Positions 1 to 21,417 of a stretch of DNA of 29,278 nucleotides are shown here, piece by piece (the first letter of the stretch is position 1; each line of letters starts with the position of its first letter). The translations under genes and the position numbers were made by a program. Below the pieces are notes generated by a model. It made no database searches. It saw only the letters and a list, made by a program, of their open reading frames with translations, and was not told where the DNA came from. The DNA is from Paraspadella gotoi. Taxonomy: Eukaryota > Animalia > Chaetognatha. The DNA is taken from assembly GCA_051294375.1 (NCBI GenBank), contig JBJCIZ010000751.1:1-29278 (forward strand), written 5' to 3'.

Positions 1-541
1 AAAAAATTGAATATATTCTATACTGTTTTAAATATTATCAACCAATTTTTGACAAATATCGAAACCACTGTGGATTTTCACGAAGGTTTTACGCCCGATT
101 TAATAAGCGAAGAAGCATTAAAAGGTCGTAAGACATTATTGATTTTGGATGACATTTTAGCGGATATGGTTTTTCGGAATTTGCACAATTTATTTGTCCG
201 TCAGAGTAGCCATCTCTCAATTTCTTTACGTTTTTCTCGTAACTCATAATTTTTTAGTCAAGTGATTAAAAATTTAAAGAGCTGCAACTCAATACTTTTA
301 TTAATATAATATGAGAAGTCCCAAGGACAAATCTAGTTTTAGAACGTTAGCTCATCAAATGTTCCCTGGACAAATTGATTTCTTCATGTCTTCCATAGAC
401 CACGCCCACAAGCAATCTAATTATGGTTATTTGTTTGTGGATGCGCATCCGGGGACGGACGAGAGACTAAAGTTAAGAACTAACGTTTTGCCAGGAGAAA
501 TTCAAACTTGCTATATCCCTATAAAAGAGAAGAATAACTAA
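1..541 (+). pseudogene. A32/FtsK-like DNA packaging ATPase, C-terminal part, frameshifted
   Basis: Walker B LLILDD, then LFVRQSSHLSIS (F..GSHH-like motif); second fragment MRSPKDKS..TLAHQMFPG...YGYLFVDAHP.T.E.LKLRTNVLP is typical of Maverick ATPases. The frame is broken at about 220-310 and Walker A lies upstream of the window. Confidence 0.88.
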
Positions 542-917: not shown

Positions 918-1784
918 ATGAAACGAATGTTTTTAATTTCTGAACATCAACTTAAATCGTTAGATAAGTATCCGAGAAATGAGGAAGACATAAAACTTAA
1001 AGCAATACAGAAAAACTTTTTTGAAAATAAAACTTTAAACGAAAATATTGAGAATGACGATTGGGCTTCAATAAGTAAAAAATTAGAACCTTTGCTGGCT
1101 AAATTAAAAGATAAAAGCGAGAGTAACGTCGTTTCCGGAAAAGAGCAGACTTTGTCGTTGTCCGTTCCACCGCCGACGCGAACGGTTCCGCCAACGCCGA
1201 CACGATCGCCGCGGTTTTCCAGATCCGTTGACCCGGAAACTTCGTACGAGTCTGTTCCGTTTTTGAGTGAAACGGACGACTTTGACGACGCCCTTGACGA
1301 CGATAGCGGTGACTCTCGTGACGACGATAGCGATGATTACGAGGAAATGAGCGAAGCTGAAAAAACCAATGATTTTCTTTTAAGCAAAATTAGTCCGTTT
1401 TTCCATAAACGAGCTGCCGCATTGTTGACTGGTTTGAGAGAACTTCCTTCCGTTAACGTAACCAACGAAAAAATATTTATTAATGAACAGCCGCTTTCGG
1501 CTTCTACCCCTCAGATTGTGGACGAACTCGTCAGAGCTAAAAACAGTTGTCCGCTCGAGGTCTCGCCTCTATTAACAGTTTTAGATAAAGCGGGGCTGTT
1601 AGATTCGTTGGTATTTAATAAACGGGCTAAATCAAAATATTATGGGAAAAGTCCTCCCAAAAAGTCGTTGCCAAAAAAACAAACAAAGAACAAAAAACAG
1701 ACCGAAAAACAAACAAAAAAATCAGCAACAGAAAAGCAAAAAGGCAAGGGTATTGGTAAATCAAAATATCAAAGCTTATATTGA
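918..1784 (+). CDS. Conserved-position Maverick hypothetical protein with C-terminal QKGKG motif
   Basis: 288 aa; N-terminal MKRMFLISE, acidic middle, basic C-terminus ending QKGKGIGKSKYQSLY; lies immediately upstream of the integrase. Confidence 0.75.
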   Translation: MKRMFLISEHQLKSLDKYPRNEEDIKLKAIQKNFFENKTLNENIENDDWASISKKLEPLLAKLKDKSESNVVSGKEQTLSLSVPPPTRTVPPTPTRSPRFSRSVDPETSYESVPFLSETDDFDDALDDDSGDSRDDDSDDYEEMSEAEKTNDFLLSKISPFFHKRAAALLTGLRELPSVNVTNEKIFINEQPLSASTPQIVDELVRAKNSCPLEVSPLLTVLDKAGLLDSLVFNKRAKSKYYGKSPPKKSLPKKQTKNKKQTEKQTKKSATEKQKGKGIGKSKYQSLY

Positions 1785-2958
1785 TGACGAAATTAAAAAT
1801 AAAATTTTAAAAACAGGTTATTATACAGCTAATTTACCAAGTTCATACAGTTCTGTTAAAAATTTATATAAATATGCCAATAGTAAAAATTCAGCTATTA
1901 AAAAAAAGGACGTTCTTGATTTTCTCTACAAACAGGAATCTTACATTCAGCATAAACCAATTAATAAGAAATTTCCGAGACGTCAATCGGTGCGATTGTT
2001 TTGTTACGATCAATTCGGTGCTGACGAAGTAGACGTCCGTGCCCTGAAAAAATTCAATTCACAAATAACTTTTTTATTAACGATAATTGATGAATTTTCT
2101 TCATTTTTATGGGTATTTCCACTTCGTCGCAAAACTAAGGACGAAATAAAAGATGCTTTTTTAAATTTGTTCACGATGACTGGAAAAACGCCTAATTTAT
2201 TACACACTGATCGAGCTAAAGAATTAGTGTATTTGGCACCATTTTGGAAAAAGTATGGAATAAAACATTTTTCAACTAACAGTATATATAAAAATACAAA
2301 AATAGAAAGAAAAAATAAAGATTTAGAGAATAGGCTTTTTCGTTACATGACCGCTTCAAATTCTCTCCGTTACCTGGATGTTTTAAGAGACATCGTTGAG
2401 GCTATAAACTCGAGCACGAGCCGTTCGTTGTTTGGTTTTAGTCCTCGCGAAGTCATTACAGACGCCGCCAAAGAGAGAATCGTTCAACGAAAAATTATTG
2501 CGAGCAATAAGAAGAGATACGAATTGTTGGAGCGTAGGTATAAAAGGAGACCGAGAATTTTTCATCTTCAGTCTCCGGTAAGAACGGTTAATTTGAAGAG
2601 ATCGATCTATGATAGAGGATATGAAAAAAAATTTGACAACAAAACCCGATTCATAACAAAAGTAGATGAATTTTTTCCAAGATTATATTCTGTTAGTGGC
2701 TTAAAACGTCGATTTTACTCGGGAGAATTGGTTTTAGCTACGGCAAATAGCGATAACGAGACGGATAGAGTTTATTACATAGCGAAAAAGAGGAAACGCC
2801 CGTCCTGGACCACGAGGCGGGGCACGGAATCCGTCTCGCACGATTTTGAATATTTACTAAAGGACAAAACTTCGGATTTGAGTCGTTGGATTTCAGAGGG
2901 CGAATATAAGGAATTAAAACGTAAACATCTCTTGAATTTTGAAAATAATGAATCATGA
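1642..2958 (+). CDS. Retroviral-like (rve) DDE integrase with degenerate C-terminal chromodomain-like segment
   Basis: YY..NLPSSYSSV..LY, FL.KQESY..HKP..KKFPRR, QFGADEVD (D), LTIIDEFS, LHTDRAKE (D), KIERKNK (E), YLDVL.DIV.AINS; tail YYIAKK...EYLLK...RWI. The true start is uncertain because it overlaps the previous ORF. Confidence 0.95.
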   Translation: MGKVLPKSRCQKNKQRTKNRPKNKQKNQQQKSKKARVLVNQNIKAYIDDEIKNKILKTGYYTANLPSSYSSVKNLYKYANSKNSAIKKKDVLDFLYKQESYIQHKPINKKFPRRQSVRLFCYDQFGADEVDVRALKKFNSQITFLLTIIDEFSSFLWVFPLRRKTKDEIKDAFLNLFTMTGKTPNLLHTDRAKELVYLAPFWKKYGIKHFSTNSIYKNTKIERKNKDLENRLFRYMTASNSLRYLDVLRDIVEAINSSTSRSLFGFSPREVITDAAKERIVQRKIIASNKKRYELLERRYKRRPRIFHLQSPVRTVNLKRSIYDRGYEKKFDNKTRFITKVDEFFPRLYSVSGLKRRFYSGELVLATANSDNETDRVYYIAKKRKRPSWTTRRGTESVSHDFEYLLKDKTSDLSRWISEGEYKELKRKHLLNFENNES

Positions 2959-3869
2959 ATGGATTCAATGTTACTTTATTAAGTAACCACAATGAATTAG
3001 ATTACATAAATAGTCCGACTCAATTCAGAAATAGATTACAAGATCCCATTTACTTAAATAGTACGACCGAGGTCGCGCTTCGTGAGATTAGCATTGAGAG
3101 AGCCATTTTAAATATTACTGAGCCTAGTAAAATTGAAATATTTGACCATTTTTATAAGAATAGAGAAACGAATAAATTTGGATTTTTACACACTTTTAAA
3201 ATAGAGCAAGGCTATTATCAATCCGAATCAATTTTATGTAAATATTTAAATGATTTAATTATTTTGGTCGTTCCACGATTGCGGAAAGAGGGACCCAACC
3301 AGTTCAGATCATTCTTTAAATACGATTCTATAACTAATAAATTTTTTTATCGTTTTTTTGATAAAGATTACATAACTGTTATATTATATGGAGAACTGCT
3401 TAACATATTAGGACTAAAAACGAGCTCCGATTCGACGACAAAGTTTAAAACTTTTGGCCGTGACAAGGCCGCGGAGGGTTACGTCTTTAAGACTAAGGAA
3501 AATACTTTGGTGAAACGGGAATTTGAGGATAAAACGGTTTATAGTAATACTTTAAAGGGAATAGTACACTGCTCTTTCGTAAATAGACTAAATACAGATT
3601 CTACTTTGTTTATTTATTTAAACATTTGTGAGGAGACGCATTTTGGTTGCGAAAAGAGAAACTTGTTAGACGTCGTACTGCCGCGGGATAAAACGGCGGG
3701 CAGGGTTGTCATTGAGAGGAGCTGTCTTAATTACGTGAGAGTAAAACCGAGAGGGCGAGTGAGTGAAATATTTGTAGATATTAGAGACTCGCGAAACCAG
3801 CCGGTTAAAATTCGGAGCGGTTATACGAGATTACTATTGCACTTTAGAGAAAATAAATGTCTAGATTAG
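2955..3869 (+). CDS. Minor capsid protein (penton, single jelly-roll)
   Basis: FNVTLLSN...NSPTQFRNRL.DPIYL...EVALREI at the N-terminus and FIYLNI.E..FG...LL.VV...YVRV...SEIFVDIRD...LLLHFR at the C-terminus are typical of Maverick mCP; ATGA overlap with the integrase stop. Confidence 0.9.
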   Translation: MNGFNVTLLSNHNELDYINSPTQFRNRLQDPIYLNSTTEVALREISIERAILNITEPSKIEIFDHFYKNRETNKFGFLHTFKIEQGYYQSESILCKYLNDLIILVVPRLRKEGPNQFRSFFKYDSITNKFFYRFFDKDYITVILYGELLNILGLKTSSDSTTKFKTFGRDKAAEGYVFKTKENTLVKREFEDKTVYSNTLKGIVHCSFVNRLNTDSTLFIYLNICEETHFGCEKRNLLDVVLPRDKTAGRVVIERSCLNYVRVKPRGRVSEIFVDIRDSRNQPVKIRSGYTRLLLHFRENKCLD

Positions 3870-4550: not shown

Positions 4551-5930
4551 ATGTCTAACGCATTTATTTCAACCGAGTTAAACAATGATAGACTAGCTTG
4601 TTTAGATTTATTTACCGAGCCGAGCGAAGATTTTTCCATAGTACATTCTTACTATAAGGAATATGAACCTTTGGGGGGACATAGTTCAAAAAAATTACAA
4701 TTTTGCATAGAACCTTCGGAACATTTTTTAGATATTTCGGAAAACCGACTGGAATTAAAAGTACGTATTATTAATAAAGATGGGACTCCCATAGATAAAT
4801 CAAGCTATCAATGCAGTTTTATTCAAGTACCGCATAGCAGTTTATTTTCAGGCATAGATTTAAAAATTGACAATAAATCTGTAGAAAGAGATATGATTAA
4901 CAATCATCATTACGCCGCTTATCTCATTAAGCTGTTTAATTATTCGTGGGAAACGTTACACTCGAAATTAAGTTTGCAAGGTTGGGAGACGGAAACTTCG
5001 CTCGGCGGAGCTCCGGATTTTAGCGCCGCCACGGGCAGTATAGGTCTAAAATCTCGCGCGGATCTTACGCGCGAGGGTCGTATTCTGACTTTGTCGGGAC
5101 CAATAACGACTCCGTTACACTCTCAAGGTCGCTTATTACCTAGCATGGTAAAGCTTAATTACGTTTTTGAGCTTAATTCCCCAAATGTTTGTATTAAAAA
5201 AGCCGCTGGTGAAGACGATTTTAATTATGAGATTTTGTCGGCAAAATTGCTCGTCAAGAGAGTACAACTGGCAGAATCGGTTTCTCTTAGAATAGAAAAT
5301 AGATTAGCGAAAACTCCTGCAAAATATCCAATTACCTATTTCAAGTGTACCGATTACACTTTACCATCGGGTAATTTAACCTATAGCATATCTAACGTTT
5401 TTTCCTCTGAATTTTTGCCAAATTTTTCCATTTTGGGTTTGGTGACTGAAACGGAATATCTTGGAACTCAGAGATCAAGCCCATTTAATTTTCAAAGTTT
5501 TGGATTATCGGAGGCGACTTTTACCGTTGACGGATTCTCTTTTCCGGCAGAAAATTTTAATTTAAAGTTTTCCGACGATACGACCATCAATGACGATCGC
5601 ACGGTAACTATTACGGCTAGAAACCGTGACGTCAGCCGAGGTTACGCGAGTTTGTTTTCGAACGTACCGAGCATGGCGAACGTTGGTTTGCCTATAAGTC
5701 AGGAAAAATACAGATCGGGAGGATTCGCGCTCCTGTGCGTACAATTTAATTCGTACGATAGAGTGCATCTGTCGAACAGCGTTCCGGGCAAGCGAATCGG
5801 TACGGCAAAATTATCGCTTAAATTTCGAACCGCGCCCAGTTCGTCGCTTAAACTAATTCTTTTTACGGAATCTTACGAGATACTAAGAATCAACCATCTT
5901 CGACAACCAATCATTAATTATTTTTCGTGA
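4551..5930 (+). CDS. Major capsid protein (hexon, double jelly-roll)
   Basis: LDLFTEP...SI..SYYKEY.P, LQFCI, FLD.S...LELKVRI, HSSLFS.IDLKID, YAAYL..LFNYS, LHSQGRLLP, AKYPI, SPFNFQ motifs; 459 aa, intact. Confidence 0.93.
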   Translation: MSNAFISTELNNDRLACLDLFTEPSEDFSIVHSYYKEYEPLGGHSSKKLQFCIEPSEHFLDISENRLELKVRIINKDGTPIDKSSYQCSFIQVPHSSLFSGIDLKIDNKSVERDMINNHHYAAYLIKLFNYSWETLHSKLSLQGWETETSLGGAPDFSAATGSIGLKSRADLTREGRILTLSGPITTPLHSQGRLLPSMVKLNYVFELNSPNVCIKKAAGEDDFNYEILSAKLLVKRVQLAESVSLRIENRLAKTPAKYPITYFKCTDYTLPSGNLTYSISNVFSSEFLPNFSILGLVTETEYLGTQRSSPFNFQSFGLSEATFTVDGFSFPAENFNLKFSDDTTINDDRTVTITARNRDVSRGYASLFSNVPSMANVGLPISQEKYRSGGFALLCVQFNSYDRVHLSNSVPGKRIGTAKLSLKFRTAPSSSLKLILFTESYEILRINHLRQPIINYFS

Positions 5931-5933
5931 GCG

Positions 5934-6545
5934 ATGTTCGGACGAGATTTAGTCAGGGCGCTCGAAAGCGACGCCGAAACAAAATCAATTTTTGGGGGAT
6001 TGTATAGTCGCGATTCTTTACCCGAGACATTGGAGCAAAAGAAAGTTTATGTATGTAACACGGCATTTCAAAATTTAAAAATAGGTCATTGGATTCTTTT
6101 GTCAACTATGGAAGGAAAAAAATTTTCAGATTATTTTTGTTCCCTCGGAGGCGAACCATCTTCCGAGTTTTTAAAAGTTTTATCTCGCTCTACTAAAAAA
6201 TATGTTAGATATCAACCTCGCATCTTGCAGTCTTTGAGTCCGGACAGCGAAGCTTGCGGTTATTTTGTACTTTTAGCCGCTCACGCTTTGTCTCGCGATT
6301 TAACTTTGAACGAGACGCTAAAATTTTTTTTTTCCGGACCGGACACGGCTATTGGAAGGTATAAAAGGGACCGTAACGTGGAGCGATTCGTCAGTTGCAT
6401 TTTTGGACTTCCAAAGTTGAGAACAACTTGCCGATACAATTTTGAGAAAGCGAGAGAATCTGAAAATTATGGATTATGGCCCCGAGACAAAAGAAGAAAA
6501 AAGCGACGCGAAAAAGCAAAGCGGAAGCCTTTCGAGATTTCATGA
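5934..6545 (+). CDS. Adenain-like (clan CE) cysteine maturation protease
   Basis: FGGLYSRD.LP, YVCNT, GHW (His), DYFCSLG, ILQ (oxyanion Gln), ACGYFVL (Cys), RDRNVERFV. Confidence 0.93.
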   Translation: MFGRDLVRALESDAETKSIFGGLYSRDSLPETLEQKKVYVCNTAFQNLKIGHWILLSTMEGKKFSDYFCSLGGEPSSEFLKVLSRSTKKYVRYQPRILQSLSPDSEACGYFVLLAAHALSRDLTLNETLKFFFSGPDTAIGRYKRDRNVERFVSCIFGLPKLRTTCRYNFEKARESENYGLWPRDKRRKKRREKAKRKPFEIS

Positions 6546-7665: not shown

Positions 7666-10077
7666 ATGTCTTTCTCTCGATCTATTCCGTCGATGGAAGA
7701 TCAACAACGTCGCGGCCATCGTCGTCGTCGTGACGATGACGACGACGAAAACGACGACGACCGTCTGGAACTTTTTTTAAATCTCCCGAGAGACAACAAG
7801 GTCGTCTGGACTCGGGAGATCGGGGAACGACTTTACGCGGACACTTTGACCAAGGCGGGAGTGCGGGTCAGAAAAAATTTTGTGACTAAAACTAAACAAA
7901 CGCTTAAGCAATCGTCTTTATGGAGTTATAAAGAATACTTATATTTTTTAATGAGCAGCGGGGATTGTATTTCAAAAATCGCCGACAGGCTAGACGGCAT
8001 AGATTTTGAGGATAAGGTCGTAACAATTTCAGGAAAAAAGGCCATTTTTATATCGGGGTTTTATCAAGATCAACCTCAAAGATTGAGCGTGAGCGTGAGA
8101 GATTATTTTTTTGACTCTGAGGGAAAGATAAAACCCAAAAAACATAACCCGATTTATCTTTCTGTCCAAGACGTGGCGAGCATCAATCATAATGCCGTCG
8201 CCCTTGCCCGGGAACTCTTGGGCTACGCCAAGAGCGACCACGAGTGCCTGGGCATTGGCTGGTGCGATTTATGCCCAATTTTAAATGAGGGACCAGTTAT
8301 GATGACTGAAATAGATTTATATGATTTTTCTAAAGGATCGGAAGGAGGATGGGGGGAAAGAGAAATAATTCCAGACAGGGAGGCCATCGTAAAAGAATTT
8401 GGGGAAGTTTTGGACAGATTTTTTTTAAGACAAAACTTTCAAGGATTTTTAAATATTAGATTGAGAGGGAGGACACCGTTTCCATTAGACCAAGGACCGA
8501 GAAATATTCCCCCCATGAGACCCCAATTTCAAAAGAGGTTACATAAAGAGTACGACATTTACAAGAGCGCGAAGAGAATTCGAACATCTTCGCCTCCTCC
8601 CGCCGCTCCCGCCGCTCCCGCCGCTCCCGTTGCTCCCAATTCTGGAGCCGCATCCGCATCCGCTTCCACCTCCTCGCCATTCTTTTCTCCCGAGGAAACG
8701 TTTGCCAATCGTCTCTCCGCTCCCAATCGAACTCTTTTCCACCCCTTAGTCAACGTGGCCGGACCGAGCGGCTCCCGTTTCGTTCGTCGCGCCATGTGGC
8801 GCGATCTCGATCGTTCTTCGACTTCTCCTTTCCCAAAAGCGGGCCCGTCATCGCCATCCTTCTCCGACGATGAAGGAGATCGAGAAACGACTTTCCTTCA
8901 ACCGCCGCCTCCTGGGTTTTTTTTCACTCCACCCCCTCCTCCACCTTCTTCTCCTCCTCCTCTTCCTCCTTTCGTCAAGATGGACATTCTCTATCCTCCG
9001 CCATCTTTGCCATCGTCTTCGCCTCTTCCTTCTTACGTTACATCACCTCCTTACGTCCCAACAACCCCCCCGGCCCAGTCAACGAACTTTCCTCTTCCTC
9101 CTCCTCCTCCTCCTTTCTACATTCCAAAGACGGAGCCGATTACTCCCATCCAATCGCCCGGACCCTCCTCCTCATCTTCGCCGACCCTGAATTTGATCAA
9201 CTTTCCTCTTCCAACTCTCGACCCTGTAACCTCCTCTCCGACCTGGAGCTCGACGACCACGCAAAGAGCTTGCAGTCCCGCGTCGGAAATCGCTTCCGAT
9301 CGTCCTTCTTCTCCATCGACGCCGCCGGAAATGGCCGGCGACGTCGATAACGCCTCTATGGAAGTTCACTTTCCACAATCTCCTAGACCCATGGAATTTT
9401 TTTCTCCGAAGGACCCTAGAACTCATTTCAAACTACTTCCTGCTTCTCCCATATTTTCTCCCTCTCCGCCGCTTCCTCCTCTTCCTCATCCTCTTCCTTC
9501 GGAAGAAGAGGAAGAAGAAGAAGAAGAAGAAATCGACTACCAAGAATCTCAAATGTTGACCGGAAGCGACGAAGACGTCTTTGAGGAAAAAAAATCCGGG
9601 AGTTTGTCGTCGTCGTCGTCAGAATCGACGACGACGACGACGACGACGACTACGTCTTCTTCTTCCAAGGAAGAAGGCGAAATCTCCGACGACGACGACG
9701 ACGACGTGGAATCGCCTCGATCGTCTCGATGCGCTACGTCGTCTACTCGTCGACGATCCATTCTTAAAAAGGCGGGACGAGGACGCGGACCGCGTGGGGC
9801 CGCCAAGTTCTCCTCCTCCGAGGAGGAGGAGGACGAAGACGCCATTAACGGTACCGGAGGAACGAATTCTTTCGTCTCAAAGAAGAAGAAGAAGCTTCGA
9901 CGGAAAAGGGCCAGGTTTAACGACTTAAAATGCTTTAGCGACACGAGCGAGGACCCGGGTTGTTTGACCGACGTGGAGGATAATGTGGACGAACTTGCCG
10001 AAGTAGAAAGTAGAAGGGCGGTTAGGAATTTAATGAAAGAGATGAAAACTAGATGGGTTAACGACGGTTTTATTTGA
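7666..10077 (+). CDS. Large orphan accessory protein: N-terminal globular domain plus Pro/Ser-rich, acidic and basic (NLS-like) disordered region
   Basis: 803-aa intact ORF; about 300 aa of ordered sequence containing HECLGIGWCDLC, then many SP/TP sites, poly-Pro, poly-Glu/Asp and KKKKKLRRKR. Confidence 0.85.
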   Translation: MSFSRSIPSMEDQQRRGHRRRRDDDDDENDDDRLELFLNLPRDNKVVWTREIGERLYADTLTKAGVRVRKNFVTKTKQTLKQSSLWSYKEYLYFLMSSGDCISKIADRLDGIDFEDKVVTISGKKAIFISGFYQDQPQRLSVSVRDYFFDSEGKIKPKKHNPIYLSVQDVASINHNAVALARELLGYAKSDHECLGIGWCDLCPILNEGPVMMTEIDLYDFSKGSEGGWGEREIIPDREAIVKEFGEVLDRFFLRQNFQGFLNIRLRGRTPFPLDQGPRNIPPMRPQFQKRLHKEYDIYKSAKRIRTSSPPPAAPAAPAAPVAPNSGAASASASTSSPFFSPEETFANRLSAPNRTLFHPLVNVAGPSGSRFVRRAMWRDLDRSSTSPFPKAGPSSPSFSDDEGDRETTFLQPPPPGFFFTPPPPPPSSPPPLPPFVKMDILYPPPSLPSSSPLPSYVTSPPYVPTTPPAQSTNFPLPPPPPPFYIPKTEPITPIQSPGPSSSSSPTLNLINFPLPTLDPVTSSPTWSSTTTQRACSPASEIASDRPSSPSTPPEMAGDVDNASMEVHFPQSPRPMEFFSPKDPRTHFKLLPASPIFSPSPPLPPLPHPLPSEEEEEEEEEEIDYQESQMLTGSDEDVFEEKKSGSLSSSSSESTTTTTTTTTSSSSKEEGEISDDDDDDVESPRSSRCATSSTRRRSILKKAGRGRGPRGAAKFSSSEEEEDEDAINGTGGTNSFVSKKKKKLRRKRARFNDLKCFSDTSEDPGCLTDVEDNVDELAEVESRRAVRNLMKEMKTRWVNDGFI

Positions 10078-10151
10078 TTTTCTCGCTATTTCTTAAATTA
10101 AATTTCTTAAATAATTTCTTGTATTTTTTGTTTGTATTTTTCGTAATAAGA

Positions 10152-10440
10152 AGTACAAAATTGTGTAATTGATTTCTTACTTTGTTTTTAGCGTGTCTTA
10201 TTTTTATTATTAATTAATTTAGTTTGCAATTTTGTATTTTTGTATTCCATTACGTTATAATTAGTACAAAATTGTGTAATTGACCTCGTACTTTTGTTTT
10301 GTTTTCCTTAGCGTGTCTTATTTTTTTATTATTAATTAATTTAGTTTGCAATTTTGTATTTTTTGTATTCCGTTACGTCATAGTACAAAATTGTGTAATT
10401 GACCTAGTACTTTGTTTTTTATTATTAATTAATTTAGTTG
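10152..10440. repeat. About 3 imperfect tandem copies of a 110-120-bp AT-rich unit
   Basis: AGTACAAAATTGTGTAATTGA...TTATTAATTAATTTAGTT recurs at about 10152, 10263 and 10382. Confidence 0.85.
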
Positions 10441-10685
10441 GCAATAAAAATTGTAAATTGTATCGTAAATTAACCTTTTGGATCGTTATTGATTGTAATA
10501 AGTTAATAAATTCTAATGTATATATAAAAAAAAAAAAGCTTTTTAATTTATCCAGACGATTAGAAAATTAGGAAAAAAATTAAAAACAAAGTTAGACGTT
10601 AGCGAAGTTTGTATTCGAAAGTTTACGACCAAAAAAGTTTAAAAAAAAAAAAATTTATAAATTTAACACCGAGCGATACATCGAA

Positions 10686-10900
10686 TGGTACACCGAATGG
10701 TACACCGAGTGGTACACCGAGTGGTACACCGAGCGGCGGCGGCACTCCCGGGCGGCGGTTCCGGGGGGGTTCCGGCGGCGGTTCCGGGCGGCGCGGCGGT
10801 TCCGGGCGGTTCCGGGCGGCGGCGGCGGCGGCACCCCGGGCGGTTCGGGCGGTTCCGGGCGGCGGCACCCCGCGCGGCGGCGGCGGCGTTTAGGCGGCGT
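10686..10900. repeat. GC-rich island: 12-bp TGGTACACCGAR x4, then GGCGGCGGTTCCGG-type repeats
   Basis: Direct reading; embedded in very AT-rich DNA between the convergent 803-aa and pPolB genes. Confidence 0.85.
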
Positions 10901-11169
10901 TAATAATATTTTTAAATTTTTTTTTTTAAATTTTCTTTTTTTTTTAATAAAAAAAAAAAAGAAAAAATAAAAAGAAAAACTAACTGATTAAGTAAATAAG
11001 TAAGTAAAAACTGACTATGAAAACTCGCGGCCAAATAATAAAAAAAATTACAAAGTTATGAAAAAATTATTATTATTATTATTACCGTAAACCAACTAAA
11101 TACAACAATTAGTTAACAATAATTATTTAAAACGATAATTACAATTGCTGGTGATGTAGATCGAGTAGA

Positions 11170-14100
11170 TCAAGTAAGAGCTTGTAATTTGGACAAGGTT
11201 TCGCGACATAGGACAAAATCCCAATTTTTTTCCATCGTCGTCGTCGTTGTCAATTCCGATTCTTTTTTCTCTCGGATAACCCTTTCTTCTCGCGCCACTT
11301 TCGCCTCGTGGGCGCGCTTTAACAATTTCTCGTATTCCGGTATGCGAAAATAATTAAATGGTACGGATTGTACGTGATTTATATTATAAGTTTTATCCGA
11401 AACGCCCTTTAAAGCGGTCCTGCTTTTTTGGACCAAGTAAGTCACGTGTTTAACGTTTAAAAATTGATGATAATAAACAACTAACGATTTGTTATTTAAT
11501 ATACTATTAGCAAACGCGTCAGCCCCAAATTTCTTTTTTTGTAATTTTTTGGCGATCCCTTTGGCCGCTACTTTGAAGCCTTTCTCGTTCGTGACTGGAT
11601 CGTACGTGACCACGTGATAGTTTTTCGGGAACACCGCCAATACGGCGTGAATGATTCCGACGATTTCGGGTTTGATCAAACCGAGTCGATTTTTATTAAC
11701 GGTCCGCAATTCCAAAAGTTTTTTCAGCGTATCCGGGTCATTTTGTTGAGTATAGAAAGGATGGTCAAGATGGTAGGGGCTGGCGTCTAAAATCCCATCC
11801 AAGGCCAACTTGGCGTAAGTTTTCCAGAAATTGTGATCGGGATGCTTCCGAACGTCGATTCTCAACTTTGCCAAGAGCGAATCGGTATCGGACAGTAGTA
11901 GTTTCGTATGCCATCCGTCTATGGCAAAGACCTTCGTCAAGTGACAATAGTATATTCGCAAGAGATGTAATTTGCTGTAAATAAAAAAAAATAATTAAAA
12001 ATAAACGAACCGTAAGGAGAGAGAGAGAAAGAGAGAGAATTGTCGGTACCACCGCCGCCCATGACTCTCCCCCCCCCCACCCCACCCCCCATGACTTCCG
12101 ACCACGATCTCACCTTAATTCTAGAATAGTAAATCCGCTATAGATGGCTCGATCGAGATAGCAAGCGGTCGCGTGCCGAGTCAAGACGTACGAGTCGCTA
12201 ACGATCATAGAATCTTGAAAGGAAGATTTTGAAATGTACTTGAGCACTTTTTTCTTGTTTAAACATACTTTAATATCATTTCTTAACGCTTTGTTCTCGA
12301 TCATTTTCCCGTATAGCGAATTGAGACTTAATTTTTTCACGAATCTCTCGGTCGGATTATCGCTCGCCGCTCGCTGATTCGCTATCGTTTGCACGTAATC
12401 TCTCATATAATAGCTTTGTTTGAATAATATCGCCTTATGCAATGCCGTGACTACTATGCCCAATTCTAAACAACAAAACTTCAAAAGCTGAGAATGAATT
12501 AAATAAAATTTCCTAGGATGAAAATCGGCGACTAATTTTTTACTAGTTCCTCTCGTCAAATGAAATCTCTCTATTTTTTCTTTGTCATAATAGGAAAGCT
12601 CTTCCGTCTTAATCTCTTTTTGATACGGAAGAGGAACAAAGTTTTTCAACTTTTTTTGAACCTCGATTGGAAAAAAAGCGTCAATTTCAAAAAAATAGCC
12701 AATGTCTCCGTCCAAATCAATATCCGACCAGCAATTTTCCAATACAATTTTTCTCAAGGATCCCAATTCCGTATCGTCGGCAAACCGTATGTCACAAAGG
12801 GGTAATTTATGACACATTGCCGTAGGATAAAGACTAGAAAGGAAAAAGAAAATACTATTAAAAAAAAAAAAAAAAAAAAAAGTTTAAATGGAATCGTTTT
12901 CAATTTTTCTCACCTCGTCACGTCTTCGAATATAATTCTGTCGTGTCTATGCTGCGGTAAAATGTCGGGTTCGTCCAAATCCTTTACGCGCAAACTTTCT
13001 TCTTCTTCCTCCTCCGCTTTGGCGCAGTCGGTCTCGTTTATGGCCTCTTCTTCCCTTCTCGTTGGCGACAAAGATGGGAGCGACGGATCGTCCGAAAAAC
13101 CCCACCTCTCCCCCACGATCGTAAAGCCTCCCCGTAGATTGGCCATAATCAATAGAACCATATCGGGATCGGAAACTTTTTCAAGTTTTACATTAGACTT
13201 TTTTAAAAACGCCTGATAAGAAAAAGACGCCAAACTAATGAATTGGACCGGATCGAGTCCGTTGTCCTCGTAAGCGATATGTCTGTATCTCGTTAGCAAA
13301 TCCGCGAGCAAGAGAGTGTCCCCGATAAGGTACGCCCGGCTGAAGCATTTTAAGGTTTTACATTTTAAATCGTACCAAACCCTCAAACCTCGCAACCATT
13401 CTTCCTCCGTAACGCTCTCTCCTTCTCGGAGCGAACTCTTAAACTTATCGATCGTTGGAAAAGAGCAAACTTCCAAATCTTTCACGCTTCGTATTTCCTC
13501 GTGAGGGAAAATTCCTTTTTTGAGAAAATGATGAAAGTTTGATTTTCCATACCATTCGCGCACGATCTTAAAAGTGTGGGGAAACGCGAGTTCTGGTTTT
13601 CTCTTTTTGGCGCACCGTTCGCACGGTTTGCCAATGTCTCGAGCCGCCTGACAGCTTTCGCAGTCAAAATCGTATACCTCGTCCCTGAGGTGTCCGACGA
13701 GTTGATCGAGCGAGCCCGGGAGATGCCTCAGGGAATCAATCAGGGTAATACTTCTGTATTGGTTACACTTTAAACAGGATTTGAATTTCTTTTTCTTTAT
13801 CGATTTGTCTTTTTTTCTTTCTACTAATTCGCCCTTTACAACCTTAAAATCTTTTTCTAGTTCCCGTATCAAGTTCTCATTGACCATTCTAAAATTATTA
13901 ATCATTTCTTTTTCGCAATTATCCTCCCATTGCTTGGCAAATTTTGACCCGTCGTCATCGTCATTCTCTCCTTCTTTCCACCAAGGTTCGCTCATTCCCT
14001 CGTCGTCGTCGTTGTCATCGTCGTCGTCGTCATCATCTTCATCTTCGAGAGAACCAACGGTCGACTCGGTCGAAACGAATGAGGAATGACCGTCAACTGA

Positions 14101-16473
14101 CGCCGACCCGATTATTCTTCTCTTAGTTTTTTCTCTCTCTTTCTTTCTTTTTCTTTTTTGACAACCACTCTCCGACTTTACGACTTCATCCCGCATTTTT
14201 CTCTCTTTTTCTTCTTCCTCTTTCTTAAGCTGATTCAAGGTCGTAGTTTCGCAATCGGGACAGGAAAAATTTAAAGTGATTGAAAGAATTTTTTCAAAAG
14301 AATTGGCGATGAATCTCACGTTTCTGACAATTTCTGGGTGTGAACTCAGGGCTACGCTGATAGAGTTTTGAAAGTCGAAACTTGATGAATTATGCGAAAT
14401 TAAAATTAAACTACGTTGAATGCGAAGTTTAAGATTGCAAGAGTTGCACAAAGTAGAAATAAAATTTGATTCGCCATTGGTATTTTTCCTATGGTGATGA
14501 TGCCGAGTCTTCAGAAGTTCGACCATGCCCGATTCCGTCGGTTTAGCAAATTCTTTATGACAACTGTCGCAATTCTTAGCTTTTAAATGGCGTCGCATCT
14601 GCTCCGGAGTTAACTTAATTTTATCATTTTCCAGTAATTTCTTATGTAACATTTTTGAATCGTCTCTGAGACTTCTTAAAAAATGGGAAGCCACATCGTC
14701 TTCGTCATCTTTTGCATAATACATTCTCAGAGGGAAAAAATCAATTCCGTAAGAGTCAATAATATAATAACAATAAGCATAAATTTTTTGAGACGATAAA
14801 AATTCCGTTCGCAATTTTAATTTCTGACAAGGTCTCTCGTTCGTACAGACCGAACAACCTTTCAACAAATGTTCGTTCTCCTTCAAAGTCGCGGCCCATT
14901 CGTAAACGCGATTTTCTGGAGGAACCCACGCCGCGGCGTCGGGATTTTCGGACGCGCCTTTACGAGACACGCCTCTACTCTCAATGTCAAAAACGATGAC
15001 GTAATCAGCCATATATTCTGGGGTACGATTTTTATACTCTAAAAACGGGTCCAGTTTTTTGTCTGGAAAAATCATGCGTTTGATAGGAAATTTGGAGCAA
15101 AGTTCGCGATGATTCGCCAAACTTTTTTCGCTTAAGCAGGAATAAAGACATTTGTAACAAAAGTAAGTTTTACCTTTATGTTTAGAATTTGAACTTCCAA
15201 GCAATCTCGACATTGATTTCACGTAATATAATGATTCTTAATTTTTTGCTCTACCAATAATAAATTTATAACATTTCTGGGTTTGTTATTGGACTGGACC
15301 TCAGGGGAAAAAATTTAGGTTTTGTTTTAAGTTTTTAGTTTCAAACCCTAATACATTAATGGCTATTTTTTTATCCTCGTTGTTTTTTTCAAATCTTAAA
15401 ATGTCATAATTGCAATTCACGGGGAATCGTATTTGAGTCCAGTTTAATTTGTGCTGATATTGTTTTAAAACGTTCATTGATGTTAAATCTAAATCCTTTC
15501 TCCGATACTCTTCCATTTGAGATAAATAACCGTAAAGCACGGCAAATTTAAAGCAACTATCCAGATCTTCTTTATTTTTAGAAAAACATTTAATATTACA
15601 ACAAGCTTTCTTATTAGCTATACAAGGTGGAGTTTTGTAATTATACGTGATGCCACTTCCGGTCAATGGACGATATTTATGTATATTTAGCCGAAAATAG
15701 TTGACTTTTTTAAATTTTAAACCTGATTTGTAAGATACAAAAATATCTATATCTGAAATTATATCGCTTAATATGGTGTTCAAAATACTATCTAAAACAT
15801 CTGGAGAATCCTGCAACGAAATAACCTGAGCGTCCATCTTCGTTTCCAATTGAATATCTTCCAAGATAGTCTCTTCTTTATCTAACGGTTTTGTAAATGA
15901 TATATTCGCTCTCACTACAAATTTTAAAACGCTATGCTCTTTGACACTCTTTAGAATTAATCGTTTTAAAGCGGGCATGACTAAAAAAATTTCTCTATTG
16001 TAATCATCCTCGCGCAAATCGTTTATCGGTCGAGTTCTCTCCAACCTGTAAGATGATATAATCGTACCAAAAGCTTTCTGAAAGGAATTCACGTCATAAA
16101 TTTCTTTTAAATCATCGTCATTTTCCAGATTGACGGGTTTGTACAGGGGGTCATTTTTGGTAAAAATAGGTAATAGTACCAGATTTTTTTTCTTACTTCC
16201 CGCTGGCGCTTGCCCGTTTGAAATCTTGCTATCGTTCATTTTATGTTCGTCGTCGTTGTCTCTGGCTAAACTCCTATCATCTTTCATATTTTCGATCAAC
16301 TTTGGTCTCCCTTCACCAATCCCGAGATTCACAGATTTTTCTCCTCCTCTTCCGCTTCCTTCTCCCACTCGATTAAAAGCTTTTTGTCCTCCGCCATCAT
16401 TTTCACTCATTAACCCTTCTCTTCCACGCCCAAAAGTATCTTTTTCCATTCGAAAGAACAATGAGTCATCCAC
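11170..16473 (-). CDS. Protein-primed family B DNA polymerase (pPolB), spliced: exons 16473-12914, 12833-12114, 11974-11170; frameshift cluster at about 15225-15303
   Basis: ExoI VIVFDIES, ExoII SHNSSSFD, ExoIII YLIGDTLLLAD, LRGG, motif A EDVTS|LYP (restored by splicing), motif B KKLSLNSLYGKMIEN, GFTILELS|KLH (restored by splicing), motif C SDTDS; C2H2 finger CYKC..H..LC and an EndoVII-like CDSC...RHHHH...CNSCN. About 1,690 aa. Confidence 0.95.
11975..12113 (-). other. Spliceosomal intron (139 nt) in pPolB between motifs B and C
   Basis: Donor AG|GTGAGA, acceptor TTTTTTTATTTACAG|; joining gives GFTILELSKLHLLRIYYCHL. Confidence 0.95.
12834..12913 (-). other. Spliceosomal intron (80 nt) in pPolB motif A
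   Basis: Donor AG|GTGAGA, acceptor TTCTTTTTCCTTTCTAG|; joining gives FEDVTSLYPTAMCHKLP. Confidence 0.95.
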
Positions 16474-16652
16474 GTTTCGATCACGACTCGCTCCTCTCGC
16501 TTCTTCGTCTTGGGGAAAAAAAATTCAAAGCAAAATAATGACAAATTTTTACTTTCGTTTTATTTTTTAATTTAATTTTGAATTTTGAAAATATTTTATA
16601 CTAATTTAATGTAATTTTTCTTTAAAAAGATTAAAAATTGATATTCCAAGAC

Positions 16653-16769
16653 GCCGGTCTTGCGCCGCTTCGGGTCTCGCGCCGCTTCGGGTCTCGCGCC
16701 GCTTCGGGTCTTACGCCGCTTCGAGTCTTACGCCGCTTTGGGTCTCGCGCCGCTTCGAGTCTTACGCCG
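16653..16769. repeat. 17-bp tandem repeat CGCCGCTTCGGGTCTCG, about 6-7 copies
   Basis: Direct reading; lies between the divergent pPolB and membrane gene A. Confidence 0.9.
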
Positions 16770-16913
16770 TGGTTTTCCAGATCCTTTGACCCTCTCGTCA
16801 CTTCGTTAGTCGGTTAGTTTTTTTGTTTGTTTTTTTTTCCTTTGGTAGTTTAAACGTTTACCATTTAATATTATTTTATATATTGTACCAATTTCATATT
16901 ATTAGCGAGGTCA

Positions 16914-17866
16914 ATGCAACACTTCGCAACGATGACCTCGCTCACGACGAAGAAGGACGCCTACGAAGATTGGGTCCGGCGGTTCGACGCCTGCATCGAT
17001 CGGGAAACGCGTCTCGGTGTACCGAAAGGTATTTTCTTTTTTATAAATTTTATTTTTTTTTATTCGTTCTAATATTTTTTTTTCCTAATAAAAAAATTTA
17101 CAGATTTCGGGTTCAGGTACTGTCAGCGGCGTGTCCCAAGACCCACGGGACCCGCGACCACGAAACCCGCGACCACGAGACCCACGACCACGAGACCCGC
17201 GACCACATCATCATCTCCGAGAGAGAGACCGGCGCCAGTACCAAAGTCATCCTCGCTTCCGCGTCCCTCGAAATTCGCGACGAATACAACGCGCCTTCCC
17301 GCTACTCGAGTTCCACGCGGCGCACTTACGAACGAAGAAATTGAAATGTAAGCTTTTATCTCGCGTATCTCTTCCACGAATATTATTATTATTATTATTA
17401 AAAAAAAAAAAATTTTTTATTCAGAATCTCCGGTTTTAGCGGTACGCTTCTCTTCGTCGCCATCCTGCTAATCGCGATTCTCAAGATTCTAAGACGGTAA
17501 GCGAAGCAATGTTTTTTAAAAAAAAAAAAATCTTAAAAAAATAATTTAAAGATTAAAAATTTTTGAAGATTGGGATTTCGATGCGCGATCCGACGATCCG
17601 AGCGGCGAGGGACGCCGCATCGACGTCTCGTCGATGCGAATGAAGAAGACGACGACGCGCTGGTCGAAAGACTCGGCGCTCTGATTCCACCGCCTCCAGG
17701 AAACGAACCGCTTCGCGCGAACAATGATTTCAGACGCGGTCGCGGTCGCGGTGTCACGCCATACTCGGAGCGTCGCGTCGGTTCCACCGCTTTCAACAAC
17801 GACGCGTACGAAAATGTGACTCTCACCGTCCCGTCGAACGCCGACGAACAAACTACCGTCTTTTAA
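16914..17866 (+). CDS. Spliced single-pass membrane protein A (exons 16914-17028, 17104-17347, 17425-17496, 17569-17866; about 242 aa)
   Basis: Three 72-77-nt AT-rich GT-AG introns give one open frame: ...FDACIDRETRLGVPK|DFGFRYCQRRVP, a Pro/Thr stalk (PATTKPATTRP), TM IISGFSGTLLFVAILLIAILKIL, and a tail with PPPP, YENV and C-terminal TVF. No clear signal peptide, so the 5' end may be incomplete. Confidence 0.8.
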
Positions 17867-18028
17867 AAAAAAATCCTTTCATTTTTTAGTTTTTGATAAA
17901 AAATATAATCGTAAGGGGTTGAAAGGTTTTGTGTATGTTTCGTCTCGTTGTTCCATTTGTTTTTTTTTGTTTTAGGTTAACTTAGGATTAGAAATACATT
18001 CAAAGGGGTTTACTATTAAGTTTAAAGC

Positions 18029-18195
18029 TGATACTAGTCTGCAATATGCAAATGAGATTATTCCTTATTACCTCGTTAATACTAACGAAAGTTTAGTATT
18101 TCTTTTAAACTATTTAAAATTGATACTAGTCTGCAATATGCAAATAAGATTATTCCTCATTACCTCATTAATACGAAAGTTTAGTATTTCTTTTA
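18029..18195. repeat. About 92-bp tandem duplication, each copy containing the octamer ATGCAAAT
   Basis: TGATACTAGTCTGCAATATGCAAAT.AGATTATTCCT.ATTACCTC at 18029 and 18121. Confidence 0.85.
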
Positions 18196-18546
18196 GTCTA
18201 TTTTTTTAAAAACTCTTTACCCTAATGGCATTTAATCTTTAGTATTAAAAAAAATGATTGTCGTTTTGTTAAAAAAAAAAATTATGATTTTTAGTTTGAA
18301 TTCTCGTCGTTACTACATTAACAATCTTTTTAGTATTATAATCATTTTATACAAAAACAACGTACCATTCACGTTACAAAATTGTTACCAAAATTTTTCA
18401 TGATTTTTTGATTCGTGTTTTTTATTGAAAAAATAAAAAGTGGACAAAAAAAATTAAAGTTTACCCAAATGTTTATTCTTCTCGTCCTCTTCCCATGGCC
18501 GCCAGAAAGCCATTTTTGTTAATAAGTCAGTAACTCGGTAACCGCG

Positions 18547-18696
18547 TTGCGCAATCAGTCAAATAGCTTGAAAGAAGGTTAAATAGACGGGTTCCTTAGT
18601 GAGTCATTCCTGGAAAAGAAAAACGATGGCGCCGTTAGTCTGACCTCGTTCTTTTTTCACAAGTTAAAACAGATATGCAAATTTTTTTTTTATAAA
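18547..18696 (+). promoter_or_regulatory. Promoter of membrane protein B: C/EBP, AP-1, STAT/GAS, octamer, TATA
   Basis: TTGCGCAAT 18547-18555, TGAGTCA 18600-18606 abutting TTCCTGGAA 18607-18615, ATGCAAAT 18675-18682, TATAAA 18691-18696. Confidence 0.55.
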
Positions 18697-18880
18697 CGGC
18701 GTCCATTCATTTCTTTGTTCTACGGAATTCGCGCTTCCTCTTCCTCTCTTATCTTTCCCCATAAATAACCCTAGACATTTAGTTTTATTCCAACCCCTCG
18801 TTCGGTCTCTTAAAACTTTTTTTCGCTCCTTTACTTTCTAATCCTAAAGTTTACTGATAAAGAACTAAAGAAAAAAAAAG

Positions 18881-20542
18881 ATGACCAAAATAAAATTCAT
18901 TTTATTAATCACTCTCTTCGGTTGCGTTCGCGCCACGACGTACGATCAATGTATGGCCCGTATGCGCTCTCGAATGCCAACTATACAAGCTCAATATTAC
19001 TGCTCCCGTTTTCCCAAGATGACAACGTCAACTACAACCACCAAACCAATCGCGCCCGTCTCAACTACGGCGGTCACCAATTCGCCAATCGTCTTAATCA
19101 CGGCTTCGCCAAATAATTTTTTAGCGACGTGCATTCGGAGGATAGCGTACTCTAGACCCTTAGGTTAATATTTAATTAATAATAAAAATTTTAAGGTATA
19201 ATTTTTTTTTAAACCGAGTTATTATTTTTTTTAAGATTACGCGCAAAGGATTTGTCGGATGCTCGAAAGTCGGATAAGTGAGGAAAGAACGACGCTTTCA
19301 AGCACTTTGACGATCCCAACGACGATAGCGCCGCCAACAACGACAAACTCTACGAAAGTTACGACAGCGACGCCCACGACGCCGCTGACGACAACAATAT
19401 CATCGCCAGGATCAACAAAGGGCGCAGTAGCGCCAGTAGCGTCGACAACTTTGGCGACAGCGACGCTCACGACGCCGCTGACGACAACAATATCGTCGCG
19501 AGGATCAACAAAGAGCACAGTAGCGCCAGTAGCGTCGACAACTTTGGCGCCGGCGACGCTTACGGCGCCGTTGACGTCACAAAAAATATTTTATACTCAA
19601 AATTGTACTATTACTACTCCCGCGAAAAATCAGGTCGTTCAAAACGGCACAATTAGATTTTTTCGTGGAACAAACGACGAAACGGCTAATGCGGAATCTG
19701 GATCGTTCATTTTCGCATTAACGATCTTGGCTCTCGTATTCATTTTCGCATTAACGATCTTGGCTCTCGTATTTTTTACCATAATACCCCTCGGCATAGT
19801 TTTTGTAAAGTTTTTACGTAAGAAAAAAAGAAGAAGGNNNNNNNNNNNNNNNNNNNNNNNNNNNNNNNNNNNNNNNNNNNNNNNNNNNNNNNNNNNNNNN
19901 NNNNNNNNNNNNNNNNNNNNNNNNNNNNNNNNNNNNNNNNNNNNNNNNNNNNNNNNNNNNNNNNNNNNNNNNNNNNNNNNNNNNNNNNNNNNNNNNNNNN
20001 NNNNNNNNNNNNNNNNNNNNNNNNNNNNNNNNNNNNNNNNNNNNNNNNNNNNNNNNNNNNNNNNNNNNNNNNNNNNNNNNNNNNNNNNNNNNNNTTTCAC
20101 CATAAACCCTCGGCATAGTTTTTGTAAAGTTTTTACGTAAGAAAAAAAGAAGAAGGCAAAGACAAAGACATCAACCGTCGCCACTTCGGTAGTTCCCATT
20201 AATAATTATTGGGGACATTTTCGGATGGAACCTCTTCCTCTGGCGGTTGTAGAACAACCGGTTCCGATCTCTTTCTTTTTTTTTCAAAGACAAAGACATC
20301 AACCGTCGCCACTTCCGGTAGTTCCCATTAATAATTATTGGGGACATTTTCGGATGGAACCTCTTCCTCTGGCGGTTGTAGAACAACCGAGTCCGTCGCA
20401 TTCTCACTATAATCTCCCACCGCCCCCTTCTATTCCAAACGATTCGCCTTCTGGCTCTCGTTTATCTTGGGATCCGACTTACGACATGGGAGATAATTTC
20501 GAAGATTCGTACGAGCATCCTTACGATACTCCCAGAGTTTAA
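18881..20542 (+). CDS. Spliced type I mucin-like membrane protein B (exon 18881-19163, intron 19164-19235, exon 19236-20542 crossing an N-gap)
   Basis: Signal peptide MTKIKFILLITLFGCVRA; two two-Cys motifs; Thr-rich stalk with N-glycosylation sequons (NST, NCT, NGT); TM with a 33-bp duplication; stop-transfer RKKKRRR; tail ending SYEHPYDTPRV. The splice RPL|DYAQRICRMLES joins the two ORF-track ORFs in frame. Confidence 0.82.
19838..20094. other. Assembly gap (N run); flanks overlap each other
   Basis: About 60 bp after the gap nearly duplicates the sequence immediately before it. Confidence 0.9.
20157..20390. repeat. About 129-bp tandem duplication in the cytoplasmic tail of protein B
   Basis: CAAAGACAAAGACATCAACCGTCG...GTAGAACAACCG at 20157 and 20285; the first copy lacks one C. 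Confidence 0.85.
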
Positions 20543-20768
20543 ATAAAATTACCTAAACATACTAATAAATTTTTATTCACCTTGTTTAATCGTTTTTTAT
20601 TTGTCTTCCCAGTTGATTAAACAATTCTGTTTGAGTTGTTAAAAAAATACTTATTAAATAATATTACCTAATTACTAATAAATTTTTATTCACCTCGTAT
20701 AATCGTTTTTATTTAATCCAAAGTATTTTATTTGTCCTCTCGGTTGATTAAGCAGTTTTTGAGTTGTT
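20541..20768. terminator. Duplicated bidirectional polyadenylation region between convergent genes
   Basis: AATAAA and TTTATT back to back (ACTAATAAATTTTTATT) in two copies of a unit of about 100 bp (about 20548 and 20663). Confidence 0.55.
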
Positions 20769-20937
20769 AGCAGCAGCAACAAAATTTTCTCCAGTTGAAA
20801 GAAGCTTTCAGTTGAATAACGATATAATTTTCGCAACTATCGCATTTTAATTCCGGTTTGCACAATTTACATTTGTGACGAGTGATTTTTATTTTTCTTC
20901 TCTCGCGAGATTCGCAAACTTTTTTTTCAAGCTCCAT
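20767..20937 (-). CDS. Small Cys-rich protein (56 aa; CxxC-x5-CxxC and C-terminal CCCC)
   Basis: MELEKKVCES...HKCKLCKPELKCDSCEN...WRKFCCCC; GCCATGG Kozak context, TATAAA at 20979-20974, AP-1 array upstream, polyA signals downstream. Confidence 0.6.
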   Translation of the reverse strand: MELEKKVCESRERRKIKITRHKCKLCKPELKCDSCENYIVIQLKASFNWRKFCCCC

Positions 20938-21008
20938 GGCTCCGTATGAGTACCCGTTTCTCGTCAAGATCCATTTATACTCCCGCAGTCCTCCATAGAT
21001 TGACCGAA

Positions 21009-21041
21009 TGAGTCACGAAAATGAGTCACGAAAATGAATCA
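21009..21041. promoter_or_regulatory. AP-1 array: TGAGTCA x2 plus TGAATCA at a 13-bp period
   Basis: Direct reading; about 30 nt upstream of the minus-strand TATA at 20974-20979. Confidence 0.6.
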
Positions 21042-21417
21042 TCCGTTACGCATTGTAAGTTTCCCTCCCACCGATGATCGTCCCGCTGAGATCGTCCCGC
21101 TCAACTTCGTCCCGCTGAAGAGATTTCTGACCGCGCCATCGCCGGGGAACGGAGTCGGCGCCCGGCCGCCACCCGCAGATTTGCCGGCATCGACGCGCGC
21201 CAGCAGAGGCGGAAGTGCCGGAGACGTTGAGTTCGATGGCGCCGATGAGCCGAAGCGGAGACGTCTCCGGCGAATGCCCGTTGGAGGGAAAGCGAGGGAT
21301 GCGCCGACGGTTGAGAGAGACGAGAAGACGACGCAGAGAGAGAAGAAGGCAGAGAGAGAGAGAGCAGAGAGAGAGAGAAGAGACGAGGAGCAGAGAGAGA
21401 CGTCACGCATTCCATGA
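21034..21417 (+). CDS. Hypothetical protein with NLS-like PKRRR and charged C-terminus
   Basis: GC-rich ORF in AT-rich surroundings; all frames are fairly open, so the frame and strand are uncertain. Confidence 0.3.
   Translation: MNHPLRIVSFPPTDDRPAEIVPLNFVPLKRFLTAPSPGNGVGARPPPADLPASTRASRGGSAGDVEFDGADEPKRRRLRRMPVGGKARDAPTVERDEKTTQREKKAERERAERERRDEEQRETSRIP

What the first reader, a model, noticed from the sequence alone, without database searches (positions are those of the whole stretch)
11975..12913. Viral pPolB split by two spliceosomal introns, one inside catalytic motif A
Seen: both introns are phase 2 within a Ser codon (AG|T, AG|C) and have the identical donor AG|GTGAGA. Read-through gives AGG TGA, an immediate stop. 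Splicing restores DVTSLYP and ILELSKL exactly. Known: Maverick pPolB is normally described as a single ORF. Inference: unspliced mRNA would yield a terminal-protein/exonuclease product without polymerase activity, so splicing could gate replication. The structural genes show no introns, which suggests an early-spliced/late-unspliced organisation.
Basis: partly seen in the sequence, partly recalled or inferred. Interest (0 to 1): 0.8.

Follow-up and report, generated by a model that had tools for sequence, protein, structure and literature searches.

The report
Intron-split polymerase in a Maverick element
The DNA polymerase gene of a virus-like jumping element (Maverick/Polinton) is cut by two short host-style introns that likely must be spliced out to make the enzyme, which is unusual for elements described as intron-free, but nothing shows that the introns act as a switch.

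Summary
Observation confirmed: two GT-AG introns (80 and 139 nt, both phase 2, donor AG|GTGAGA) interrupt the polymerase of a Maverick/Polinton (integrase, double jelly-roll capsid). The exons abut on a profile of intronless relatives, and DNA runs carry all four intron ends. No RNA covers either junction, so their splicing is inferred. One RNA-type contig skips a predicted 72-nt intron in an accessory gene of the same element. The gating idea is unsupported: a first-codon stop follows from any phase-2 GTRA donor and occurs in 3 of 4 accessory introns; the integrase is intronless too. At least 4 of 99 distinct public Polinton loci carry pPolB introns at other sites, scattered on the tree, pointing to repeated gains. 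Papers read call core genes intronless, but this scan noted intron-split pPolBs before on other DNA (8 notes). Intron 1 has a second in-frame acceptor that would put 7 residues into motif A: the one testable switch. New variant of a known kind.

The parts
12914..16449 (-). pPolB exon 1 (first ATG at 16449; predicted terminal protein, vOTU-like, Zn/HNH-like insert, exonuclease, up to the motif-A Asp)
   Evidence: Profile columns 84-334 and 366-818; exonuclease motifs; domain order from PMC11161782; start codon inferred
15224..15333 (-). Break in exon 1 (stops, not an intron); runs X1 and X2 differ from the window almost only here within pPolB
   Evidence: homologous stretch in relatives is of similar length
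12834..12913 (-). Intron 1, 80 nt, phase 2, inside motif A
   Evidence: both ends in runs X1, X2; acceptor also in X8
12855..12856 (-). Second, in-frame AG in intron 1, 21 nt upstream of the main acceptor; use would add 7 residues inside motif A
   Evidence: use untested
12114..12833 (-). pPolB exon 2 (rest of motif A, motif B)
   Evidence: Pfam PF03175, phrog_1907 from residue 1, columns 839-1069
11975..12113 (-). Intron 2, 139 nt, phase 2, in the conserved L-[DE]-L-S-K stretch
   Evidence: covered end to end by two overlapping X2 contigs; donor in X6, acceptor in X8
11170..11974 (-). pPolB exon 3 (motif C, DTDS)
   Evidence: columns 1071-1250
1..536 (+). 3' part of a likely packaging ATPase gene, broken in the window
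   Evidence: Walker-B-like motif by eye only; no hit; runs X2 and X7 differ from the window in 66-309
1603..2958 (+). Retroviral-type integrase, single ORF
   Evidence: Pfam rve 8.4e-08; tblastn to 23 loci
2955..3869 (+). Likely minor capsid protein, single ORF
   Evidence: 25% to an ORF of Polinton locus L106; name inferred from position
4551..5930 (+). [quoted passage not shown]
   Evidence: model pLDDT 78.7; Foldseek to iridovirus, mavirus, Sputnik MCP, E about 1e-14
5934..6545 (+). Likely cysteine protease, single ORF
   Evidence: 28% to an ORF of L023; name from recalled His/Cys motifs
16914..17866 (+). Predicted accessory gene (Thr-rich, one membrane segment) with predicted introns 17029-17103, 17348-17424, 17497-17568
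   Evidence: sequence reading; an X9 contig of depth 2.1 crosses the first of these unspliced
19164..19235 (+). 72-nt GT-AG intron of an accessory gene starting at 18881 (signal-peptide-like, Thr-rich)
   Evidence: X9 record 30 joins 19161 to 19234, equivalent to this intron; one contig, one run

Best explanation
The polymerase gene of this Maverick/Polinton element is interrupted by two GT-AG introns that the host spliceosome likely removes constitutively to yield the full enzyme. Shown: the intron ends, the exon-to-profile fit, the presence of the introns in independent DNA runs, and one skipped accessory intron in an RNA-type contig. Inferred: the element is transcribed in the nucleus by the host, its lineage gained these introns after long residence in an intron-rich eukaryote (probably an invertebrate), only exactly removable introns survived in such conserved motifs, and unspliced RNA is a dead end (premature stop) rather than a product.
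For: Canonical ends and T-rich 3' tracts, lengths 80 and 139 nt like the 72-77 nt accessory introns. Exons meet at adjacent profile columns. 110 of 117 fetched loci are continuous over junction 1 and 113 of 117 over junction 2; none has an intron there, 2 have a single stop. 130 and 143 of 150 protein hits span the two sites. All four intron ends are in runs X1 and X2; three of four in runs of a second study. An accessory intron is skipped in X9. At least 4 of 99 distinct public loci carry 6 GT-AG introns at other pPolB sites; the label needs 4 changes for 5 rows on a quick tree. The two introns share nothing beyond the donor; no Rfam match.
Against: The donor of intron 1 is only weakly preferred by profile score, and a second in-frame acceptor exists. 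X9 is only guessed to be RNA, the skipped intron rests on one contig, and another X9 contig crosses a predicted accessory intron unspliced. No close relative was found (best 37% identity), so intron age and conservation were not measured. The window copy is broken upstream.
Confidence: 0.75

Rival explanations
1. Splicing is regulated and gates replication: retention of intron 1, or use of its upstream in-frame acceptor, gives a polymerase-dead protein until the element is activated.
For: Retention stops the protein inside motif A; a second in-frame AG lies right after the poly-T tract; intron 2 can fold a purine/pyrimidine hairpin.
Against: First-codon stops are a by-product of phase and donor consensus and occur in 3 of 4 accessory introns; the hairpin is not exceptional (z -1.59, 15 of 200 shuffles); the upstream AG has A at -5 whereas the other five window introns and the main acceptor have T; intron sites differ between lineages.
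Confidence: 0.12
2. The two segments are insertions in a dead copy and are never spliced.
For: The window copy is broken in pPolB and in the ATPase-like gene.
Against: Both segments have exact GT-AG ends that leave the protein colinear; the window's other breaks fall where sequencing runs differ from it, while the intron ends do not differ; other core genes are open.
Confidence: 0.08
3. The introns are recent copies of an intron-generating transposon (introner), as reported in dinoflagellate Polinton-like elements.
For: Identical 6-nt donor; AG on both sides of each junction; precedent in PMC12166617.
Against: No similarity between the two introns or to other window DNA beyond short low-complexity words; AG|GT is the ordinary consensus. 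The host genome was not available to search.
Confidence: 0.05

Closest known systems
Mavericks/Polintons of vertebrates and nematodes (PMC8097293; 10.1101/2022.07.12.499685; passages read)
   Same: pPolB on one strand, integrase, capsid and protease-like genes on the other; intron-bearing accessory (cargo-like) genes as in nematode Mavericks
   Different: Both papers call the core genes, pPolB included, intronless; here pPolB has two introns. Exon 2 is at most 37% identical to any relative found.
Chlorovirus DNA polymerase intron (PBCV-1 a185r; PMC7019647, passages read)
   Same: A short spliceosomal intron (101 or 86 nt) in a viral family-B polymerase gene, absent in related viruses
   Different: Large lytic virus with an RNA/DNA-primed type polymerase, one intron; not an integrating element
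Introner-bearing Polinton-like proviruses of dinoflagellates (PMC12166617 / 10.1101/2025.03.18.643946; first third of preprint and passages read)
   Same: Host-type introns inside Maverick-Polinton-like elements
   Different: Those are multi-copy transposon-derived introns in protists; here two unrelated introns with no introner signature
Unannotated public Polinton loci L064, L065, L078, L112
   Same: GT-AG introns of 84-165 nt in pPolB
   Different: Other positions (profile columns about 390, 738, 1064, 1076, 1223 versus 838 and 1070) and other branches

Membership tests
Maverick/Polinton | Protein-primed family-B polymerase with exonuclease and motifs A, B, C | tested here: met
   (each exon tested separately)
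Maverick/Polinton | Retroviral-type integrase | tested here: met
   Pfam rve above cut-off
Maverick/Polinton | [quoted passage not shown] | tested here: met
Maverick/Polinton | Minor capsid protein and cysteine protease | tested here: inconclusive
   Each ORF matches one unannotated Polinton locus; no family hit
Maverick/Polinton | Packaging ATPase | tested here: inconclusive
   Partial and broken at the window edge; no hit
Maverick/Polinton | [quoted passage not shown] | not testable with these tools
   Left end outside the window, genome not held; no terminal repeat found in the window
Maverick/Polinton | Intronless core ORFs (usual description, not a strict criterion) | tested here: not met
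   pPolB has two introns; integrase, capsid and protease-like ORFs are unbroken
U2-type spliceosomal intron | GT-AG ends, consensus donor, pyrimidine tract, colinear exons | tested here: met
U2-type spliceosomal intron | Removal from RNA | tested here: inconclusive
   No RNA contig over either pPolB junction; shown only for an accessory intron
Self-splicing group I/II intron | Ribozyme fold, Rfam match | tested here: not met
   0 Rfam matches in 10000-21500; 80 and 139 nt
Introner | Multi-copy, sequence-similar introns | tested here: inconclusive
   No similarity within the window; host genome not searchable

The most novel reading that the evidence does not exclude
A mobile Maverick lineage uses alternative splicing inside motif A (retention of intron 1 or its upstream in-frame acceptor) as a host-controlled switch between a dead and an active polymerase, and repeated intron gain in pPolB ties such elements to hosts with compatible splicing.
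Probability: 0.1. Interest if true: 0.75.

Novelty: new variant of a known kind. Interest (0 to 1): 0.45.

Why it matters
Surveys that score Mavericks as intact by intronless ORFs would call such a copy dead or miss it, so intron-bearing lineages may be under-counted. Introns that appear at different pPolB sites in separate lineages offer a clean case of repeated intron gain in an ancestrally intronless viral gene, and imply nuclear, host-spliced expression of the replication gene. The junctions give a direct RT-PCR read-out of polymerase expression.

Tried and rejected
No RNA holder was listed. Run X9 (RNA guessed) has four short low-depth pieces in pPolB exon 1 and no listed piece over either junction; this is no evidence either way, and the joint tables were cut (32 and 17 rows hidden). 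Depth differences between runs were not used as copy number. Word-based protein searches with exon 2 found nothing; single-protein locus scans of viral contigs found nothing; PDB sequence search gave no real hit; the Atlas gave no answer; no genome is held. Short protein hits that start or end near the junctions (P0103, P0052 and others) could be contig ends and were not counted as shared introns. Of 25 loci with pPolB in more than one ORF I inspected 4; the other 21 looked like stops or frameshifts from coordinates only, so 4 of 99 is a floor, and the searches favour intronless copies. A third intron at the upstream break was rejected (no intron-like ends; same length as relatives). Two weak intron-like pairs inside the open minor-capsid ORF were rejected as unnecessary. 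Terminal repeats were not found. Kinship of the two accessory genes was not shown. The tree is the quick version on 233 columns of exon 2, 65 rows chosen from the hits. The original Polinton paper was not held; the name F54H12.2 was not found in papers.

Full report
Observation. On the minus strand the polymerase reading frame is interrupted at 12913..12834 (80 nt) and 12113..11975 (139 nt). Both segments begin GTGAGA after exonic AG, end in a T-rich tract plus YAG, are phase 2 within a Ser codon, shift the frame, and give Arg then stop if read through. AGGTGAGA occurs only at these two places in the window; two copies alone are not rare (9 of 100 shuffles), but both sit at the ends of polymerase ORFs.

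Fit to relatives. A recalled motif-A pattern and an alignment of exon 2 fetched 117 public loci, 99 distinct (one search kept the best 80 of 267 relatives). On a profile of 14 intronless ORFs exon 2 spans columns 839-1069 and exon 3 begins at 1071. With X at the junction, intron 2 is the best of 40 possible GT..AG pairs by a wide margin. Intron 1 is the best of 54 only narrowly in a local test and was not in the top 8 in a long-context test, because an acidic insertion precedes motif A; the higher-scoring pairs lose the catalytic Asp and use poor donors. 110 and 113 of 117 loci, and 130 and 143 of 150 protein hits, are continuous over the two sites; no relative has an intron there. The enzyme is divergent: at most 37% identity, end branch 1.47.

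The element. Positions 1-21,400 hold an rve integrase, a double jelly-roll capsid protein, likely minor capsid, protease and ATPase genes (names inferred), the opposite-strand pPolB, and accessory genes. This is a Maverick/Polinton layout; its ends were not found. The host is a eukaryote, probably an invertebrate (inferred from the flank and from named capsid relatives in thrips and a ribbon worm at 24-27% identity).

Sequencing runs. Eight DNA runs of two studies hold the stretch or part of it. X1 and X2 (one sample, possibly related to the window's source) carry all four intron ends unchanged; X2 covers intron 2 end to end with a small length difference in its G run; X6 and X8 (second study) cover three of the four ends. 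The runs' differences cluster in exactly these two stretches (15,224-15,333 in X1 and X2; 66-309 in X2 and X7), so the breaks are assembly errors or peculiar to this copy. The one RNA-type run, X9, has a contig (depth 10) that joins 19161 to 19234, equal to removal of the 72-nt GT-AG intron I had predicted at 19164-19235 in an accessory gene. Another X9 contig (depth 2.1) crosses the predicted intron 17029-17103 unspliced. Splicing of the pPolB introns themselves remains unobserved.

Mechanism. Most likely (0.75) these are ordinary spliceosomal introns, gained by this lineage in an intron-rich host and removed constitutively; exact removal is forced by their place in conserved motifs. The gating idea (0.12) rests on the immediate stop, but any phase-2 intron with a GTGA or GTAA donor has one, and 3 of 4 accessory introns do too, the spliced one included. 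The early/late idea has no support: the integrase is intronless as well. The only feature that could serve as a switch is a second in-frame AG 21 nt upstream of the intron-1 acceptor, which would add 7 residues to motif A; its context fits the local acceptor pattern less well. Dead insertions (0.08) and introners (0.05) fit worse.

How common. At least 4 of 99 distinct loci (L064, L065, L078, L112) carry 6 GT-AG introns of 84-165 nt in pPolB, none at the window's sites; sister loci L064 and L065 share one site with introns of different length. On a quick tree the five intron-bearing rows need 4 changes (53 of 500 shuffles as low). Different sites and scattered branches point to repeated gains; there is no root test, so losses are not excluded.

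What is known. Passages of PMC8097293 state that intact vertebrate Mavericks have intronless ORFs and that no introns were seen; passages of 10.1101/2022.07.12.499685 call nematode core genes intronless and cargo genes intron-bearing; term searches within 10.1101/2023.08.22.554363, PMC8502044, PMC12220804, PMC12721341, PMC11296320, PMC10175614, PMC5718144 and 10.64898/2026.07.28.741278 showed no spliceosomal intron in a pPolB. Introners in dinoflagellate Polinton-like proviruses and the chlorovirus polymerase intron are precedents. Library searches listed no paper on intron-split Maverick pPolB; subscription journals, Repbase entries and supplements were not seen and may hold such cases. This scan's own notes list 8 similar findings on other DNA; none matched this sequence; they are unchecked and not counted as support.

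Verdict. Real feature, new variant of a known kind, interest 0.45; the regulatory reading is open but unsupported.

Noticed in passing
window 7227, 16462, 18600, 21009, 21022, 24936: TGA(G/C)TCA (AP-1-like, name recalled) occurs 6 times, expected 1.9 (2 of 100 shuffles); five lie near the starts of element genes, one just upstream of the pPolB ATG. Possible shared promoter motif.
   Followed up: partly
window 16914-17866 and 18881-20540 (+): Two accessory genes predicted to encode Thr-rich membrane proteins, both with short introns; the second is represented in run X9 at depth about 10. No relatives among fetched loci for the part tested.
   Followed up: partly
window 21066-21119 and 29216-29268: Inverted copy (85% over 54 nt) of the start of the ORF at 21034; a second element end or a paralogue may begin at the window's right edge.
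   Followed up: partly
window 16639-16774 and 10680-10890: 17-bp tandem repeats upstream of pPolB and GC-rich short repeats between the converging gene modules.
   Followed up: no
window 7666-10077 (+): 803-codon Pro/acidic-rich ORF with no family hit, in the element between the protease-like gene and pPolB.
   Followed up: partly
window 12914-16449 (-): pPolB exon 1 carries extra CxxC pairs and acidic low-complexity insertions; the gene is about 1,690 codons, longer than most relatives.
   Followed up: no
L026, L062, L068, L069, L075, L083, L090 and others: Several public Polinton pPolBs are broken by single in-frame stops (3-nt gaps between ORFs); some may come from hosts with a changed genetic code.
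   Followed up: no
L112 2554-2637: An IMG/VR viral contig carries a GT-AG intron in pPolB.
   Followed up: partly
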